DNA of 64,000 nucleotides from the human T2T-CHM13v2.0 reference genome, Homo sapiens: NCBI RefSeq assembly GCF_009914755.1, contig NC_060925.1; one strand, 5' to 3'. A program made the translations under genes and the position numbers. Under the pieces are notes generated by a model. That model was not told the DNA's origin, made no database searches, and was given only the letters and a program-made list of their open reading frames with translations. Positions 17,571 through 44,460 of this stretch are shown piece by piece (positions within the stretch are counted from its first letter, which is position 1; every line of letters starts with the position of its first letter).

Positions 17571-18501
17571 ACATGGTTCTTGGTACATATGCATAAACCT
17601 ATCTATATTCATGTGCACATAAAACATAAACACAGGCCATTATCCAGTCTCAGGTTCTCTCTGATGATTTTTTTTTCTGCAGTTGATTATTGCCTTGTCC
17701 TGTCTCTTCATCTCTTATTTCTTATTCACAAACACACTTACTGATGTGGTGTGCATTTCCTTAATTTGCATGGGTTTGCATAGTGCCTGGGGAATGATCA
17801 AATGTCTCATCCCCTCTCTCCACTTGAACAAGGAATTCCCCATTTAGAGCAACGACCCTGTGGAAGGGGGAGTGGGTGTGTTTGGGTGATTGGATCGAGG
17901 AGGTGGCACATATATGTTAAAAAGTCATATTCGGTATGCCCGTTGTCTTCAAAATATATCCTATGGCAAACAAGCTTCTCAGTGAGTGGAGAAGATGATG
18001 AATTTGGATCTCCTAGGGGGTGGATGAAGAGGCGCCGAGATTGGTGAGTTTATCTGAAGGGGCAGGGGTGGGATGCAAAGGTGGGCACGATGGGGCGAGT
18101 TTCTTACTTTTTTTCTAGCTCTCATTGGCCAGTGCTTAAGCCATCACATAGATTTCAATCAGCTGTAACAGATATAACCTTGAAGTGTGAGGTTGTCAGG
18201 AAAAAGAAGAAAGGAAGGCGGGGAAGTGGGGAGAGAGAGAGAGAAAGAGGGAGCAGGCTGGAAAAGAGAGAAAGGGAGTGTCAGACACTGTGACAACAGC
18301 GTCATTCCCTCCATCGTGTCCTGTTGACCTGCCGCAGGCCAGCCCCAAAATGCATACAGCCAGGTCTTGCCCAATCAGATATTCTCGTTATCCCCTTAAT
18401 TATTCTTTACAATTAAGCTGTATGTTCTCCATTTACAGAAGAGGAAGTGAAACCATAAAGAGGTCCCTTGGCCACCGAAAGGGAGACTCGGGTTTCAGCC
18501 G

Positions 18502-18730
18502 AATGTCTTTCTTCCTGAGTTGAAATCCCTGATCCACCTCTTACCATAATAACCATGTGATATTGAACGAGTTATCTAACTTCATGTTGCCTCAGTTTCT
18601 GCATCTGTGAAGTGGGGATAATACTGCAGAACTATTAGGGTTGTATAAGCCTTAAATGAGTTAATGTACATAAAATGCATAGAACAGTGCCAGGTGCATA
18701 TTAAATCCTGTATAAGTGTTAGCTATTATT
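18502..18730 (+). mobile_element. MIR (left arm of high-identity inverted repeat)
   Basis: gcctcagtttctgcatctgtgaagtggggataata...ttaaatgagttaat...tagaacagtgccagg. Confidence 0.9.
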
Positions 18731-19509
18731 CTATTGTTATTATTCTACGAGCATAGATTGTTCAGTTAAAAATCTTGTCCCTCCCTCTTTCTCCCAGTGC
18801 CCCTTCCTGCCAGCTTCTCCTTCCTTTTAAGAGTTAAGCCCTGGGGTCGGCTTCTCCGGCCAGCAAGTGATGTCATCCCCCCTTCCCCTTCCCCCTACCC
18901 CACCCCAGGGTCTGGCCTCCCAGAGGACGGGTCTGTGCCTGTTTTCCAGACCCCCAGGCAGGCAGCAGTTCGGGGAGCGAGCGCAGGGATGCTTATTCTC
19001 CGCCCTTCCTCTCTTTGAGAATCTAAGGGCATAAGTTAGATAACCGTGACACCTGTTTTAAATTAGCCCTCAGAAGCCTCCGACAGCTGAGAAATTATTT
19101 AACAGGGAAAGAATTGAGTTCATGAATAAATATTAATATTAAATCACCACTTCCCTAGATTTAAGAGGAAGGGTGGGGGACTCACCAATAGATGGAGGCA
19201 GCAGGTGTCCTGGAGATGCCACTGTGCAGGGCTCAGAGAAGCCAGCTGTGGGGTGGGACTACGGAGCCACCGACCATTGGTCACCTCGTTCCTGTCCAAG
19301 CCGAGAGGGGACTCTGTCCATCAGGGAGGCTGGCAGGTGGCAGAGGCAACATCCAAGCAGCTCACGGCAACTCAACAGGTGCTCGTTTGAGCTCCAACCT
19401 TCCCAGGCTGCGGTCTTAGAGGGAGAGAGACTCCACCTGAGAGCTGCCCAAAGCATGGAGCAGACTCCCACCCCCATCCCTCAGAGAGGGGCCACTGTCC
19501 CAGCCCAGC

Positions 19510-19770
19510 CTGGCCCCATTGTGACTTTCATGGGTCCAGCACTGTTACCTCCGTGGGCCCCTGCCTCCATGTAAAAATGGTAAAATGTTTATTTTATGAC
19601 CACATTGGAATAAAGATGTATTCCAAAGATGTAATCCAGGCTGGATTTGTAATTCTATATTCATTATTATTTTATTCATTTTTTTCCCTGATTTTAAAAG
19701 GAATCAAAATGAAAACATATTTTGGGCCCTGGGCACGGTCCCTACTGGGCCTGATGGAGGCGGCAACTCT
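19510..19770. mobile_element. hAT-Tip100 MITE (ORSL-like)
   Basis: gggccc-bearing ends around an AT-rich core (aatccaggctggatt, ttttaaaaggaa); family recalled, not certain. Confidence 0.5.
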
Positions 19771-20069
19771 CTGGCTGGGGTCGGGGTGACGGATGCTTGA
19801 GCCAGGGAAGCAGGAACTGGTGAGGAGGGGTCGGCTTGGGGGTGAGGGTCTCCAGGGGATGGCAGAGCCACCCAAGGGATGTGAGGATCTGGAAACTCAG
19901 ATCCCATCCTTTAGGTCCAGATCACAGATTGAAATTAAGTAAGAATCATCAATTTCTATGAATAACAAAAGTAATAATAATGAGTATGAATGAATAGCAC
20001 ACTCTGCTTTGACTGTCCTGACCCCCTTGGCATTCTTCAAAAGCCTCCAAGCAAAAGGAAAAGAAACTG

Positions 20070-20460
20070 CCAAGCACATTCCAGGCTCAGGGCCTTCGCC
20101 TTAGCTCTCCTGGCCTGGCATCCTCTTTCCTGGTATTTGAGTGACTCGCTCTCCCTTCTTCTTGGGTCACCATCCTAGTGAGGTTCTTCCTGGCTTTTGG
20201 ATCGAAATAGCCCCTCTACTCCCTTTATCCACTGTTCTTTTCCCCTCCTTAATTTTCTCCATAGCACTTCCTGCTTCCTTATATTCCACTGCGTGACACA
20301 TGGAAACATAGGGTATAATAGAATATACGCTGCATGTGGCGAGGTGTAGATGTTTACCAGGTTGTAGGGACTTTGTTTCATTCTTCTTTGTGCACTTAGC
20401 ATCTAGAATAGTGCCTGCCATGCAGGGTGCTCAAAAAACCCTGAATGAATGAATGAATGA
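20070..20460 (+). mobile_element. L2 3' end
   Basis: ctcagggccttcgcc...tttctccatagcactt...tagaatagtgcctg...(tgaa)n tail. Confidence 0.8.
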
Positions 20461-20827
20461 AACATGTCTGGCACATACATGGCAGTTACAACCATCTTTG
20501 TGCCTAGCGCTTTGGGTTGCTGAGCCCTCAGCCTTCAGTGAGGAGGTATTGGCCTTCTTCCACCATTGCAGAGACTGAGGCCTGGACATACAAACAAGCA
20601 TGCCCCACAGTCATACAGTTAAGGTAGATCAATAGCTTCCCTGGATAAAACAAAGTGTAGACAGGTCCAAGGTTTGAGCAAAAAAGTGGTTTGGAAGGCG
20701 CAGTTATGGAAGGATGAGGGAATAAGGGGGCTGATGATTTCCCTTCCTACTCCAGGTTCAGCATTTCAGTTTCTGTCTGCACCAGAGCCTTCTAGGCTCT
20801 TTGTTGGAAACTGTGGATGTCACACTA

Positions 20828-21055
20828 TAGCTCATACTTACTTATACAGAATTTAATATGCACCTGGCACTGTTCTATGCATTTTACATATATTAACTCA
20901 TTTAAGGCTTATACAACCTTGATGAGTTCTGCAGTATTATCCCCACTTCACAGATGCAGAAACTGAGGCAACATGAAGTTAGATAACTCGTTTGATATCA
21001 CATGGTATTGTGGTAAGAGGCGGATCAGGGATTTGAAATCAAGAAGAAAGACATT
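20828..21055 (-). mobile_element. MIR (right arm of high-identity inverted repeat)
   Basis: cctggcactgttcta...tattaactcattta...tattatccccacttcacagatgcagaaactgaggc. Confidence 0.9.
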
Positions 21056-22299
21056 GGAGTTGGGGACACTGGTTTAAGTGCCTGCCCTGCAGAACCTAAG
21101 CAGATCTGTTTTCCCCTGGGCCTCAGTCTCCCCCTCTGTAAAGGAGGGAACTGGGCCACAGTCTGTGATCCCTGCATCGGGCAGGGCTGAGTGCTCCCTT
21201 CTTCTGCATCCAGGCTTCCCACCAGGGAAGGGAATGAGCCCTCCTCCTTGCTGCCTCCCCTCCTCCTAGTCCCCGGCTCAGGGCCTGATGCCTGCAGGTG
21301 GTGGTGGATCCTCGGTCGTGCGGCGGATGTGTTCTGGCATCATTTAACACCTGCCTCATATCTCCGAAGCCCCATCCTACACGTAGCTGTGAGCACATAG
21401 CTCTGCCGAACTCCAAATAGACATAAGCCACTGCCCTGCTCGGCTTCTTGTCTAATTATGGCTGCGACATTGATGTGACAGGGTGCGTTTAATTACAGGA
21501 CCATGCACACTGACCCAAACGCTGTTTTGGCCCAGAATTTTCCAGCTTGAGCAGCCCAAACGCTGTGTGTGATGATAATAATAAGGACCTTTAGATTGTG
21601 CTGGGGATTAAATGAGATAATACATGCTTCTGGCAGGGAGCAGGGCACCAGCCAGTGACCTGTGGTCAGGTCCCAGCTCCTCCTTCCCCTTCCTGCTCCT
21701 GACATGGATGCCCACTCTGCCTAGCCATGCCCTGGAAAGACACCCATCCTATCTTGGCTAGGCAGAATGTCAGCTCTGTCTTTTTTGAATTTGTCCTCCA
21801 AGGATTTGCAGAAGATGGGAACAGGGGAGGCCTTCTGAATATAGTGACTCTTCTCCCAGCTCCCAGAAGCACATCTGGCTTGGCAGCATCTTTGGGCCAC
21901 CCAAAGCCAGGGTCCCTTGGCCCAGGCAGCATTTGGGTCAGTGTGAGGGCCTTCAGTAAGCACACGTTCCCATCTTGACACCACTGCCATCACTAGATAA
22001 GACACTGAGAGGGACGGCGGGCTGTGTTCATTTTGTGTCTGATGAGCTCTGCTATAAAATGAGGAAAGCAGTTCAGAGAAATTAAGCAACTTGCCCAGAG
22101 TTGTCCAGCTAGGAATTTCCAGAGCTGTACTCAGATTCAGAACTCTGGGTGACTGCCCTATGCCAGGCACCCCCATTTGTTAGCCTTTAAATGGGATCTG
22201 AAACCTTTATTTATCGGGACAAGTCCTGAGTGTCCAGCAGACCAAGCTTTCCTTCCTTTCCTTCCACCACAAAGTGGAAAGTCTTGCCACCACTTCTGA

Positions 22300-24999: not shown

Positions 25000-25300
25000 G
25001 ACCGTGAGTTCAAATCCCAGTCCAGACACTTCTGAGCTGTGTGACCTTGGGCATGTGTAACTTAACTGTTTTCTCACCTGGAAAATGGGTTCATAAGAGT
25101 ACCTGTATCATAGAGTTGTTGGAAGAATACAAGGGACAGCTTCAAGTAGTATTTGGCACAATAGTATTTGGTCTTGATGAATGTTGGTTGTTGTAAGTCA
25201 TAATTACTCATGCATGGCAGATGGAGAGAGTCATTCAGAGAGGTGAGGTGAGCTGCCCAAGTTATAGAGATGGGATTAGAACCCCTCTCTTAATGTAGGT
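25000..25300. mobile_element. Tail-to-tail MIR pair (+ ~25000-25195, - ~25210-25300)
   Basis: gagttcaaatcccag...ctgtgtgaccttggg; cagagaggtgaggtgagctgcccaag. Confidence 0.7.
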
Positions 25301-28789: not shown

Positions 28790-29005
28790 AGGCTCCCTGT
28801 GTACCCAGAACTGTGCAGAGCACTTCATGTGTGTTAGCTCCTCTAGCTCCCAAGAGGAAGGTGACATTATTATGGTCCCCATATACACATGGAAATTGAG
28901 GCACAGAGAAGCAAAGTCAGTTGATCAAGGACTCATAGCCAGACGTGTCAGAGCTGGATTTGAACTTGGCCCCTCTGCCCCTTGAGCCTTTACCCTTAGC
29001 CACTG
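28790..29005 (-). mobile_element. MIR
   Basis: ggaaattgaggcacagagaag...gagctggatttgaac. Confidence 0.8.
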
Positions 29006-29491
29006 CCCTTTGGTTGGCCCAGCCGATGCCACTCCTGACTTGCGGTGCTAGGGCAGTGTGGCTCCCACAAACCCTCTGCTGCTGCAGGGGTGAGGAGTGA
29101 GGATCCTTGTGAGAGTCAGAGATGAGCTGGCACTGCCCCTGGGCTCACCCTGGGTGAGGAACAGAACAGATAATCCCAGAGTCAGAGCCCAGGGAAAGGC
29201 CAGGGAGGCCCTTCCCCACACTTAACAGGAAGCTCAGGCCCAGAGATGGGCAGTGGCAGCAGGCCCAAGGCCTCATAGCGGGGTGCCAGCAGATCCAGAC
29301 CTTGAAGCCAATGTCGCCCGACTTTGGGGCAAACATCCCCTTCTTGCTATGTAGTTCTCTCTCTCGCTTGCTGAAAGGAGCAGAAAACTAAATTTGGATC
29401 ATGAGTTTATTCAGAGAGATGGCTTAGTGTCATCACCTCCCAGCTCACTTAGTAATCATGTGAGCTGGACATTGTGCTGGGCACCATGGTG

Positions 29492-30150
29492 CAGCCGTCT
29501 CCAACCTTTTTGGCACCAGGAACCAGTTTCGTGGAGGATGAATTTTTCCACAGACCAGGGCAGGGGCGAAGGTTTCAGGATAATTAAAGTACATTGCATT
29601 TCTTGTGCACTTTATTTCTATTATTATTACATTGTAATATATAATGTAATAATTATACAACTCACCATGATGGAGAATCAGTGGGAGCCCTGAGCTTGAT
29701 TTCCTGCAACTAGATGGCCCCACTGGGGGTGCTGGGAGACAGTGACAGATCATCAGGCATTAGATTCTCATAAGGAGCTCACAACCTAGATCCCTCACTG
29801 ATGCAGTTCACAGTAGGGTCCGTGCTCCTATGAGAATCGAATGCCGCTGCTGATCTGACAGGAGGTGGAGCTCAGGTGGTCATGTGAACAATGGGGAGTG
29901 GCTGTAAACATAGATGAAGCTTGCCTGCCATTCGCTTACTGATGTGTGGCCCGTTTCCTAACAGGCCATGGGCTGGTACCGGATTTGAACTTGGTTCCTC
30001 TGCCCTGGAGCCTTTACCCTTAGCCACTGCCCTTTGGTTGGCCCAACCAATGCCACTCCAGGCTTGTGGTATTAGGGAAGTGTATGGCTGCTGCAGGGGT
30101 GAGAAGTGGGGGCCAGTACCAGTCCATGGCCTGGGGGATGGGGACTCCTC
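29492..30150 (+). mobile_element. MER1A hAT-Charlie DNA transposon (with foreign insert 29981-30108)
   Basis: cagccgtctccaacctttttggcaccagg ... ggcctgggggatggggactcct; 8-bp TSD ccatggtg / ccttggtg. Confidence 0.9.
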
Positions 30151-43901: not shown

Positions 43902-44110
43902 CTGGGGTCAGCACATTTTCCTGTAAAGAGCTAGATGGTAAACATTTTAGGCTTTGTAGTCCACAGGGCAAAATCGAAACTGTTATGTGGGTATTTGTAT
44001 ATCATTTAAAATGTAACTATTTATAAATATGCAAATCATTCTTAGCTGGTGGGTCCTACAGAAACAGGCTGGCCAAGATTTGATCTGGGGCCATCGCTTG
44101 CCGAGAGCTG
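43902..44110 (+). mobile_element. MER58 (MER58C-like) hAT-Charlie MITE
   Basis: ggggtcagc..ttttcctgtaaag...aaacattttaggctttg; perfect 8-bp TSD ttctaagc on both sides. Confidence 0.88.
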
Positions 44111-44269
44111 TTCTAAGCCTTGTTTCCTTTATCTGTAAGATGTGACCAACCTCTGTTTCTGAGGGTGGTTGTGGGTATTCCATACACCAGACAGAATGTG
44201 CCTGGCAGCGCTTAGCACATGGTAACACCATAATCCTAAAAGCCCTATGGGATGGAGGGCTTACTCCCA

Positions 44270-44460
44270 GGCACTCCTCTGAGAATATGAACTCATAAGC
44301 TCCTCTGACCCCATAACATAGGTACTGTTCGGTCTCCATTTTACAGATGAAGAAACTGAGCCTTAGAACGATGCAGTCATTTGCCCAAAGTTACATGTTG
44401 GTTAAATGGCAGAGCTGGGATTTGAACACAGGGACTCAGACTTCAGAGCCTGTGCTCGCA
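44270..44460 (-). mobile_element. MIR
   Basis: ccattttacagatgaagaaactgag...ggcagagctgggatttgaac. Confidence 0.88.

What the first reader, a model, noticed from the sequence alone, without database searches (positions are those of the whole stretch)
18502..21055. Near-identical inverted MIR pair bracketing a 2.1-kb segment (homogenised inverted repeat / candidate invertible or RNA-looping unit)
Seen: 18502-18717 (+) aligns to the reverse complement of 20840-21055 with about 13 substitutions and 2 single-base indels over ~217 bp (~93%, hand count). This includes a 68-bp perfect block and many shared non-consensus bases (e.g. cgagttatctaacttcatgttgcc). Two differences are CA/TG pairs (tatTGaa vs tatCAaa; taCAtaa vs taTGtaa), consistent with independent decay of a shared CpG. 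Established: MIRs stopped moving roughly 100 My ago, and independent copies are far more diverged than this. Inference: the similarity is confined to the MIR body, so one copy was probably overwritten by the other (gene conversion or template switch) in primate times, or the arms are kept paired. Such arms could mediate recurrent inversion of the 2122-bp loop, or form a >200-bp dsRNA stem in a transcript (ADAR editing, exon looping, back-splicing).
Basis: partly seen in the sequence, partly recalled or inferred. Interest (0 to 1): 0.82.

Follow-up and report, generated by a model that had tools for sequence, protein, structure and literature searches.

The report
Inverted MIR pair from local copying
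Two ancient MIR repeats facing each other 2.1 kb apart in an intron of IGSF21 are 93% alike, most likely because one was copied onto the other roughly 20-30 million years ago, which looks like an ordinary by-product of DNA repair or replication with no sign of function.

Summary
18502-18717 matches the reverse complement of 20840-21055 with 202 matches, 13 substitutions and 2 one-base indels (93.1%), including a 68-bp perfect run. Both arms are MIR SINE copies. Ordinary MIR pairs are about 51% alike in profile columns, with a maximum of 74%, so the pair is an 8-SD outlier. Each arm is the other's only close relative in the genome. Similarity stops sharply; the flanks are unrelated.

The best reading is one local inverted copying event, followed by neutral decay. 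The event could be repair-mediated duplication, homeology-guided conversion or a template switch. K=0.063 gives about 29 My at the rate used by Pace et al. 2009. Only 0.33% of random 216-bp windows fall inside a MIR, so the receiving site probably already held an inverted MIR.

Nothing supports function:
- transitions show no wobble bias (6 vs 5);
- there is no Rfam match;
- no annotated exon lies in the loop.

The class is common. The 264 kb sampled around the window holds two more low-copy inverted pairs and three direct ones. This is a new member of a known kind and of low interest. Outgroup genomes, which would settle timing and direction, were not available.

The parts
18502..18717 (+). 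Arm 1: MIR SINE copy in + orientation. The MIR profile aligns 18513-18727 to model positions 37-247.
   Evidence: 93.4 bits to the arm-free MIR profile. 73.3% identical to the majority consensus over 210 columns.
20840..21055 (-). Arm 2: MIR SINE copy in - orientation. The MIR profile aligns 21043-20839 to model positions 38-238. It is 93.1% identical to arm 1.
   Evidence: 81.2 bits. It is the only genomic match to arm 1 above 83%.
18718..18748 (+). MIR 3' tail continuing from arm 1 in register. GTTAGCTATT corresponds to model 238-247, followed by an AT-rich tail. It lies outside the 93% block.
   Evidence: 3 of 18 other copies that reach the model end show a similar ATTATT-type continuation, so this is weak evidence.
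20827..20839 (-). Fuzzy extension next to arm 2. It contains AGCTAT in register with the MIR tail, plus a 4-nt ACTT tandem duplication and substitutions. It is either a remnant of arm 2's own older MIR tail or an error-prone junction.
   Evidence: nhmmer with arm 1 as query extends the match to 20827.
18718..20839 (.). 2122-bp spacer ('loop'). It is unique in the genome except for one old interspersed repeat. No annotated exon lies in it.
   Evidence: the only full-length match is to itself, and the other 40 matches all fall in loop positions about 780-1040 at 68-83%. The exon statement rests on the annotation supplied with the finding.
19497..19757 (.). Old AT-rich interspersed repeat inside the loop. 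The family was not named here.
18404..18500 (-). Degraded older MIR in the opposite orientation, abutting arm 1 on its outer side (model 43-171).
   Evidence: 17.3 bits, E 3e-6.
21035..21151 (+). Degraded older MIR in the opposite orientation, abutting arm 2 on its outer side (model 5-139). Its first 21 nt overlap the end of arm 2.
   Evidence: 25.7 bits. Without 21035-21055 the score falls to 18.8-19.0 bits and only model 98/99-139 aligns.

Best explanation
This is a one-off local copying event followed by neutral decay. Two MIR SINEs, both more than 100 My old (age recalled, not from a call), lay in opposite orientation about 2.3 kb apart in IGSF21 intron 1.

Roughly 20-30 My ago, about 216-226 bp of one was copied in reverse-complement orientation onto the other site. 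The process could have been break repair by synthesis-dependent strand annealing (SDSA) that used the nearby inverted MIR as an ectopic template. It could equally have been a replicative template switch between the two imperfect inverted repeats.

That event made the arms identical. Since then each arm has gained about 3% private changes, CpG decay included.

Shown: the identity, its uniqueness, its sharp ends, the MIR nature of both arms, and the neutral-looking pattern of differences.

Inferred: the date, the mechanism, and that the receiving site already held a MIR. I put about 0.55 on that last point, against 0.3 for a de novo insertion of the copy into non-MIR DNA.

The direction of copying is unresolved. 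The pair can form a 216-bp duplex in the IGSF21 pre-mRNA intron, but I see no evidence that this matters.
For: 1. The arms are 93.1% identical against a MIR-pair background of 51.4% (SD 4.8, maximum 70.4%; 6332 far pairs).
2. There are only two copies in the genome.
3. The arms share 47 non-consensus bases, against 13 differences between them.
4. There is no similarity in the outer flanks (z=1.3) or the inner flanks (z=1.0), so this is not a decayed larger duplication.
5. Confinement to the MIR body is unlikely for a randomly placed copy: 0.33% of 216-bp windows qualify. Both arms also carry MIR-tail-like sequence in register just beyond the block. This favours a homeology-guided event between two existing MIRs.
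6. No poly-A/T tract and no target-site duplication is visible at either arm, which argues against retroposition.
7. The differences look neutral: 11 transitions and 2 transversions, similar private loads in the two arms, and no wobble bias (6 vs 5).
8. K=0.063 gives 28.7 My at the pairwise rate of 2.2e-9 used by Pace et al..
9. Size and spacing fit the published class of proximal repair-mediated duplications: 824 cases in human, donor within 5 kb, mean 162 bp, maximum 619 bp, no poly-A, neutral divergence, and a rate highest before the ape/Old World monkey split (PMC2671141, sections read).
10. The class is common locally. There are 6 low-copy local pairs in 264 kb, 3 of them inverted. Three of the six have K of 0.059-0.065.
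11. Neighbouring MIRs are not homogenised in general: 250 other near pairs have a mean of 51.6% and a maximum of 66.4%. This points to a single accident, not a standing process.
Against: No outgroup genome could be consulted, so the date, the direction and 'single event' all rest on one genome.

Ordinary homologous recombination should not work between sequences only about 50-70% alike. The mechanism must therefore be microhomology- or homeology-tolerant (SDSA capture or a template switch), and that is inferred.

The outermost 12-21 nt of the shared block fit the head of the neighbouring + strand MIR at 21035 better than the arm's own MIR (+6.6 bits). That suggests the copied unit crossed a MIR boundary and that the right side was the donor. 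The well-preserved MIR tail next to arm 1 suggests the opposite, or else a pre-existing MIR at the left site.

Neither arm can be shown to interrupt an older repeat, which is the diagnostic Pace et al. used.

The 68-bp perfect run is borderline long for uniform decay (P=0.044-0.089). A second, younger conversion patch is not excluded.
Confidence: 0.8

Rival explanations
1. De novo repair-mediated inverted duplication. A break at a site that held no MIR was patched by copying 216-226 bp from the MIR 2.1 kb away, so one arm is a pure insertion. This shares the 'one-off neutral copy' core of the best explanation and differs only in the state of the receiving site.
For: It fits the published class in size, distance, two-copy status and lack of poly-A. 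The shared block's outer 12 nt are not MIR-like in the arm's orientation. A unique-sequence inverted pair of the same age lies 70 kb away (141 bp, 93.6%, 849 bp apart), which shows that such captures happen here without repeat homeology.
Against: Only 0.33% of random 216-bp windows lie inside one MIR. MIR-tail-like sequence lies in register beyond the block on both arms. Excising either arm in silico does not rejoin a split older repeat.
Confidence: 0.3
2. A micro-inversion of the 2.1-kb segment with duplication of one breakpoint, by staggered breaks or an inter-strand template switch with spacer inversion. The arms would be the scar of one ancient inversion.
For: [quoted passage not shown] This would reconcile the two conflicting donor hints: the head of the right-hand neighbour MIR is inside the block, and the MIR tail lies next to arm 1.
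Against: Reconstructing the pre-inversion junctions gives no gain in MIR profile score (16.2 to 16.8-17.0 bits on the left, 18.8 to 19.0 bits on the right). Published short template switches are tens of bases long, not 216 bp at 2.1 kb.
Confidence: 0.07
3. The arms are actively kept alike, either by recurrent gene conversion or by selection for a paired intronic dsRNA stem or an invertible segment.
For: The predicted duplex is very stable: -349 kcal/mol for the + strand RNA, against -63 +/- 8 for shuffled arms. Both arms lie in one intron of a transcribed gene (supplied annotation). The 68-bp perfect run is borderline long (P=0.044-0.089).
Against: Identity is 93%, not the greater than 99% of palindromes maintained by conversion. 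There is no wobble bias (6 vs 5) and private decay is similar in both arms. There is no Rfam family. No annotated exon lies in the loop. Other local pairs show the same divergence (K 0.059-0.065), as expected if all simply decay neutrally.
Confidence: 0.05
4. Two independent MIR insertions that happen to be similar (same source gene), or an assembly artefact.
For: None beyond both being MIRs.
Against: The pair lies 8 SD above 6332 far MIR pairs. The arms share 47 non-consensus bases and shared indels. No third copy is above 83% anywhere in the genome. The two arms differ at 15 columns and are separated by 2.1 kb of unique sequence in a telomere-to-telomere assembly.
Confidence: 0.01

Closest known systems
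Proximal repair-mediated duplications (RDs) of Pace, Sen, Batzer & Feschotte 2009 (PMC2671141; abstract, introduction and four result/discussion sections read). The paper cites the 'doublets' of Thomas et al. 2004, which I saw only as a citation inside it.
   Same: Short local duplicate (216 bp; their mean is 162 and maximum 619). The donor lies within 5 kb (2.1 kb here). There are exactly two copies in the genome and no poly-A. The divergence is consistent with neutral decay since an event in the catarrhine or anthropoid ancestor, when they found the rate highest. The pair is intronic, as many of theirs are.
   Different: Their diagnostic, an insertion splitting an annotated repeat, is not met here. 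Here the copy coincides with a repeat body, which points to homeology-guided overwriting and not capture at an arbitrary break.
Template-switch mutations and quasi-palindrome correction (Ripley model; four-point model of Loytynoja & Goldman 2017, PMC5453318, passages read).
   Same: An imperfect inverted repeat is turned into a near-perfect one by copying one arm from the other in reverse complement. No long perfect homology is needed.
   Different: Published events involve tens of bases and nearly adjacent arms. This one is 216 bp across 2.1 kb. The ancestral state was not observed.
Inverted Alu pairs forming intronic dsRNA, and genome-wide predicted dsRNAs (dsRNAscan preprint, 10.1101/2025.01.24.634786, passages read).
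   Same: An inverted SINE pair within one intron, predicted to form a long duplex. That catalogue scans 10-kb windows and lists 5,134,754 predicted dsRNAs, over 90% of them repeat-derived.
   Different: The arms are MIRs that are alike only because of a secondary copying event, not because the family is young. At 216 bp the pair is below that paper's 'long, highly paired' class (over 300 bp and over 96% paired). Editing was not checked.
Large palindromes maintained by ongoing arm-to-arm gene conversion (for example Y-chromosome P6; PMC3723533, search listing and abstract start only).
   Same: Inverted arms made alike by non-reciprocal copying.
   Different: Those arms are kilobases long and over 99.9% identical through continuing conversion. 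These are 216 bp, 93% identical and apparently decaying.

Membership tests
MIR (mammalian-wide interspersed repeat) SINE | Significant alignment over most of the element to a MIR profile | tested here: met
   The profile was built from 58 other copies with the arms masked. Arm 1 scores 93.4 bits over model 37-247 and arm 2 scores 81.2 bits over model 38-238. That the profile is MIR rests on my recall of the consensus, because no Dfam or Repbase library was available.
Repair-mediated duplication (Pace et al. 2009) | The insert has exactly one other copy in the genome, on the same chromosome within 5 kb | tested here: met
   the only match above 83% is the partner 2.1 kb away.
Repair-mediated duplication (Pace et al. 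2009) | Length at least 50 bp and in the observed range (up to 619 bp), not tandem | tested here: met
   216-226 bp with a 2122-bp spacer.
Repair-mediated duplication (Pace et al. 2009) | No poly-A/T tract, that is, not a retroposed copy | tested here: met
   Read directly at both ends of both arms. No A or T run and no flanking direct repeat was seen.
Repair-mediated duplication (Pace et al. 2009) | The acceptor interrupts an older transposable element whose two halves flank it in register | tested here: not met
   In-silico excision of either arm does not extend the flanking MIR alignments (16.2 to 16.3-17.0 bits; 18.8 to 18.9-19.0 bits).
Repair-mediated duplication (Pace et al. 2009) | Empty site in an outgroup, and junction microhomology, filler or deletion | not testable with these tools
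   No other mammalian genome is held. Junctions about 29 My old are too decayed to read microhomology.
Template switch / quasi-palindrome correction | A pre-existing imperfect inverted repeat converted to a near-perfect one | tested here: inconclusive
   Indirect support only: confinement to the MIR body (0.33% of random windows) and MIR-tail-like sequence beyond the block on both arms. The ancestral state was not observed.
Palindrome under ongoing concerted evolution | Arm identity near 100%, and within-species arm identity above between-species ortholog identity | tested here: not met
   Identity is 93.1% with 15 differing columns spread over both arms. The between-species half of the test was not testable.
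circRNA / exon-looping flanking inverted repeats | The arms lie in introns on either side of one or more exons | tested here: not met
   The supplied RefSeq table has no exon between 16138 and 48810. Both arms lie in the same intron.
ADAR-edited intronic dsRNA | Both arms in one transcript, a stable long duplex, and A-to-I sites in RNA-seq | tested here: inconclusive
   The first two are met (annotation; -349 kcal/mol). Editing is not testable here. A literature search for IGSF21 plus RNA editing gave 3 papers, none on this by title (listing only).
NAHR-invertible segment | Inverted arms with long uninterrupted identity, and both orientations found in populations or species | not testable with these tools
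   The arms are inverted, but the longest perfect block is 68 bp. My recalled figure for efficient mammalian recombination is about 200 bp or more. Orientation polymorphism cannot be seen in one genome.

The most novel reading that the evidence does not exclude
Homeology-guided copying between ancient SINEs or other old repeats kilobases apart is a recurrent primate mutational process that creates new long intronic dsRNA stems. Two such cases (this MIR pair and a 352-bp old-repeat pair) lie within 264 kb of one neuronal gene. Under this reading the IGSF21 stem is actually used, for example as an ADAR substrate or a modulator of intron processing, or the loop flips between orientations.
Probability: 0.05. 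Interest if true: 0.5.

Novelty: new member of a known kind. Interest (0 to 1): 0.17.

Why it matters
On present evidence this matters little for biology. It is a clean, datable example of how repair or replication errors can re-homogenise two very old, diverged repeats and so create a long perfect inverted repeat where none should exist. It is useful as a caution: high identity between ancient repeats reflects secondary copying, not young age or selection. It also hints that small local duplications are frequent, about one low-copy pair per 44 kb in the 264 kb sampled. If the stem were edited or the loop polymorphic, it would become a primate-specific structural feature of a synapse-organising gene, but nothing here points that way.

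Tried and rejected
- Larger decayed palindrome. The outer and inner flanks show no similarity (z=1.3 and 1.0).
- Mobile element with long terminal inverted repeats. The loop is unique apart from one old repeat, and no other genomic copy of the arms exists.
- Retroposed copy. There is no poly-A/T tract and no target-site duplication.
- Either arm as an insertion splitting an older MIR, and loop inversion reconstructions. Profile scores did not rise.
- Known RNA family. There were 0 Rfam matches at E<=1 in 18000-21500.
- General homogenisation of neighbouring MIRs. The 250 other near pairs are no more alike than far pairs.
- Selection for pairing. The wobble test gave 6 vs 5.
- Recent conversion patch. 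The 68-bp run gives only P=0.044-0.089.
- The identity-to-consensus table was mis-registered (246 columns against a 248-position consensus). It was discarded and redone.
- LIRBase would not list this pair, because it requires arms over 400 nt.
The base rate therefore rests on 264 kb around IGSF21 only and may not be representative.
- Complex prediction, the structure tools and the protein tools were not relevant and were not used.
Full report
**What is there.** I read 18300-21300 and aligned 18502-18717 with the reverse complement of 20840-21055. The alignment has 202 matches, 13 mismatches and 2 one-base indels, which is 93.1%. BLASTN and the repeat finder, in three collinear pieces, report the same pair. 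The longest perfect run is 68 bp. The differences are 11 transitions and 2 transversions, and they include two adjacent TG/CA doublets.

**Both arms are MIRs.** No repeat library is on hand, so I built a profile by iterating nhmmer from arm 1 over the window and eight genomic loci. I then rebuilt a full-length profile with both arms masked (58 copies, 248 positions). Its consensus is the MIR sequence as I recall it. Against this arm-free profile, arm 1 aligns at 18513-18727 (model 37-247, 93.4 bits) and arm 2 at 21043-20839 (model 38-238, 81.2 bits). The arms are 73.3% and 70.1% identical to the majority consensus. That places them in the upper part of the 56-89% range of 46 copies, but they are not exceptional. 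They share 47 non-consensus bases and several indels.

**Is it more than chance?**
- Among 1122 MIR pairs with at least 100 shared profile columns, the mean identity is 51.8% (SD 5.6). The next best pair is 73.8% and the arm pair is 90.5%.
- In a larger 264-kb sample there are 6583 pairs. Far pairs average 51.4% (SD 4.8, maximum 70.4%). The 250 other pairs within 5 kb average 51.6% (maximum 66.4%).
- Genome-wide, arm 1's only match above 83% is arm 2.
- 0 of 4 well-preserved control MIRs from the window has a comparable twin.
- Within the window the pair is more alike than any pair of Alus, whose maximum is 85.4%.

**Edges and surroundings.** Similarity ends sharply. The outer flanks (z=1.3) and the inner flanks (z=1.0) are unrelated.

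At the tail end there is a fuzzy 10-nt continuation. AGCTAT lies in register, with a 4-nt ACTT tandem duplication in arm 2. Arm 1 runs on into a well-preserved MIR tail.

At the head end, the outermost 11-12 nt of the shared block do not align to the MIR model in the arm's orientation. On the right side they fit the head of a neighbouring, degraded + strand MIR (21035-21151). That neighbour scores 25.7 bits with them and 18.8-19.0 bits without them. A second degraded MIR in the opposite orientation abuts arm 1 (18404-18500, 17.3 bits).

These two hints about which side was the donor conflict, and I could not resolve them. In-silico excision of either arm, or re-inversion of the loop, does not rejoin any split repeat.

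The loop is unique in the genome apart from one old repeat at about 19497-19757, so the unit is not a mobile element. No poly-A/T tract and no target-site duplication is visible. Rfam finds nothing.

**Mechanism.** The data fit a single copying event followed by neutral decay. K=0.063 gives 28.7 My at the pairwise rate of 2.2e-9 used by Pace et al. Without the five CpG-type differences the figure is 17.8 My.

Only 866 of 263,570 random 216-bp windows (0.33%) lie at least 95% inside one MIR. A randomly placed duplication would therefore rarely coincide with a MIR body. Together with the MIR-tail-like sequence beyond the block on both arms, this favours the view that both sites already held inverted MIRs. 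One would then have been overwritten using the other as template.

Background identity is only about 50-70%, so classical homologous recombination is implausible. Two processes that need only microhomology fit better:
- synthesis-dependent strand annealing with an ectopic nearby template (PMC2671141);
- template switching between imperfect inverted repeats (PMC5453318).

I give 0.8 to 'one-off neutral local copy'. Within that I give about 0.55 to overwriting of an existing MIR, 0.3 to de novo capture, and less to a micro-inversion with breakpoint duplication.

**Function.** The predicted duplex is very stable: -349 kcal/mol, against -63 for shuffled arms. Both arms lie in IGSF21 intron 1 according to the supplied annotation, so a dsRNA stem can form in the pre-mRNA. 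Several points argue against any role:
- The transitions split 6 vs 5 between the two strands' wobble-compatible types.
- Private changes are similar in the two arms.
- No annotated exon lies in the loop, so back-splicing has no substrate.
- The 68-bp perfect run is only borderline unusual (P=0.044-0.089).

A published genome-wide scan predicts 5.13 million dsRNAs, most of them repeat-derived. This stem is below that paper's 'long, highly paired' class (passages only).

**Base rate.** In the resulting 264 kb, a self-comparison found 12 local pairs (within 10 kb, at least 85% identity, at least 80 bp). Six of them are low-copy:

| Pair | Orientation | Length | Identity | Spacing | Note |
|---|---|---|---|---|---|
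| the MIR arms | inverted | 216 bp | 93.1% | 2.1 kb | two copies in the genome |
| unique-sequence pair | inverted | 141 bp | 93.6% | 849 bp | two copies in the genome |
| old interspersed repeat pair | inverted | 352 bp | 88.9% | 474 bp | other genomic copies 73-83% |
| three further pairs | direct | 104-176 bp | 93.8%, 88.5%, 86.7% (BLAST; the last is 81.6% over 179 columns) | 0.5-1.5 kb | |

Three of the six have K of 0.059-0.065 (27-30 My). That is in line with the higher duplication rate Pace et al. report before the ape/Old World monkey split.

The finding therefore belongs to a common, published class. The sample is one gene region and may not be representative.

**Verdict.** The functional and inversion ideas are unsupported or untestable here. 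This is a new member of a known kind and of low interest. The decisive test is orthologous alignment in primates and outgroups, which these tools do not allow.

Noticed in passing
L013:5571-5711 and L013:6560-6699 (G000:C1:18069571-18070699): A second inverted pair in the same gene, made of unique, non-repeat, GC-rich sequence. It is 141 bp at 93.6% with the copies 849 bp apart, and these are the only two copies in the genome. K=0.059, about the same age as the MIR pair.
   Followed up: partly
L014:6674-7025 and L014:7499-7828 (G000:C1:18080674-18081828): An inverted pair of full-length copies of an old interspersed repeat family (1173 first-look candidates). The pair is 352 bp at 88.9% with the copies 474 bp apart, whereas other genomic copies are only 73-83% alike. 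This is the same 'similarity confined to the repeat body' pattern as the MIR pair. The family was not named.
   Followed up: partly
L018:2829-3004 and L018:4506-4681 (G000:C1:18116829-18118681): A direct low-copy pair, 176 bp at 93.75% with the copies 1.5 kb apart. Only its first roughly 57 nt match other loci (82-88%).
   Followed up: partly
window 28956-29059 and 29981-30083: A direct low-copy pair inside the window, 104 bp at 88.5% with the copies 922 bp apart (K=0.115, older than the MIR event). A further direct pair lies at L012:3313-3447 and L012:3983-4117 (86.7% by BLAST; 81.6% when extended).
   Followed up: no
whole window and flanking 200 kb: MIR density is very high: 63 profile hits (E<=1) in the 64-kb window and 172 hits (E<=1e-3) covering 9.7% of the 264 kb. 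Several MIRs sit directly next to another MIR in the opposite orientation, for example 44108-44224(+) with 44266-44428(-), and 25006-25132(+) with 25199-25284(-).
   Followed up: no
window 18404-18500 (-) and 21035-21151 (+): Each arm is abutted on its outer side by a degraded MIR in the opposite orientation, head to head. The whole structure therefore reads MIR(-) MIR(+) ... MIR(-) MIR(+). The two outer MIRs show no specific similarity to each other and have different internal deletions. It is unexplained whether this symmetry is chance or helped the copying event.
   Followed up: partly
window 19497-19757: An AT-rich old interspersed repeat inside the loop, with 40 other genomic matches at 68-83%. 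The family was not identified.
   Followed up: no
window 20446-20462: A short (GAAT)n run directly after a MIR 3' fragment (20397-20477) inside the loop.
   Followed up: no
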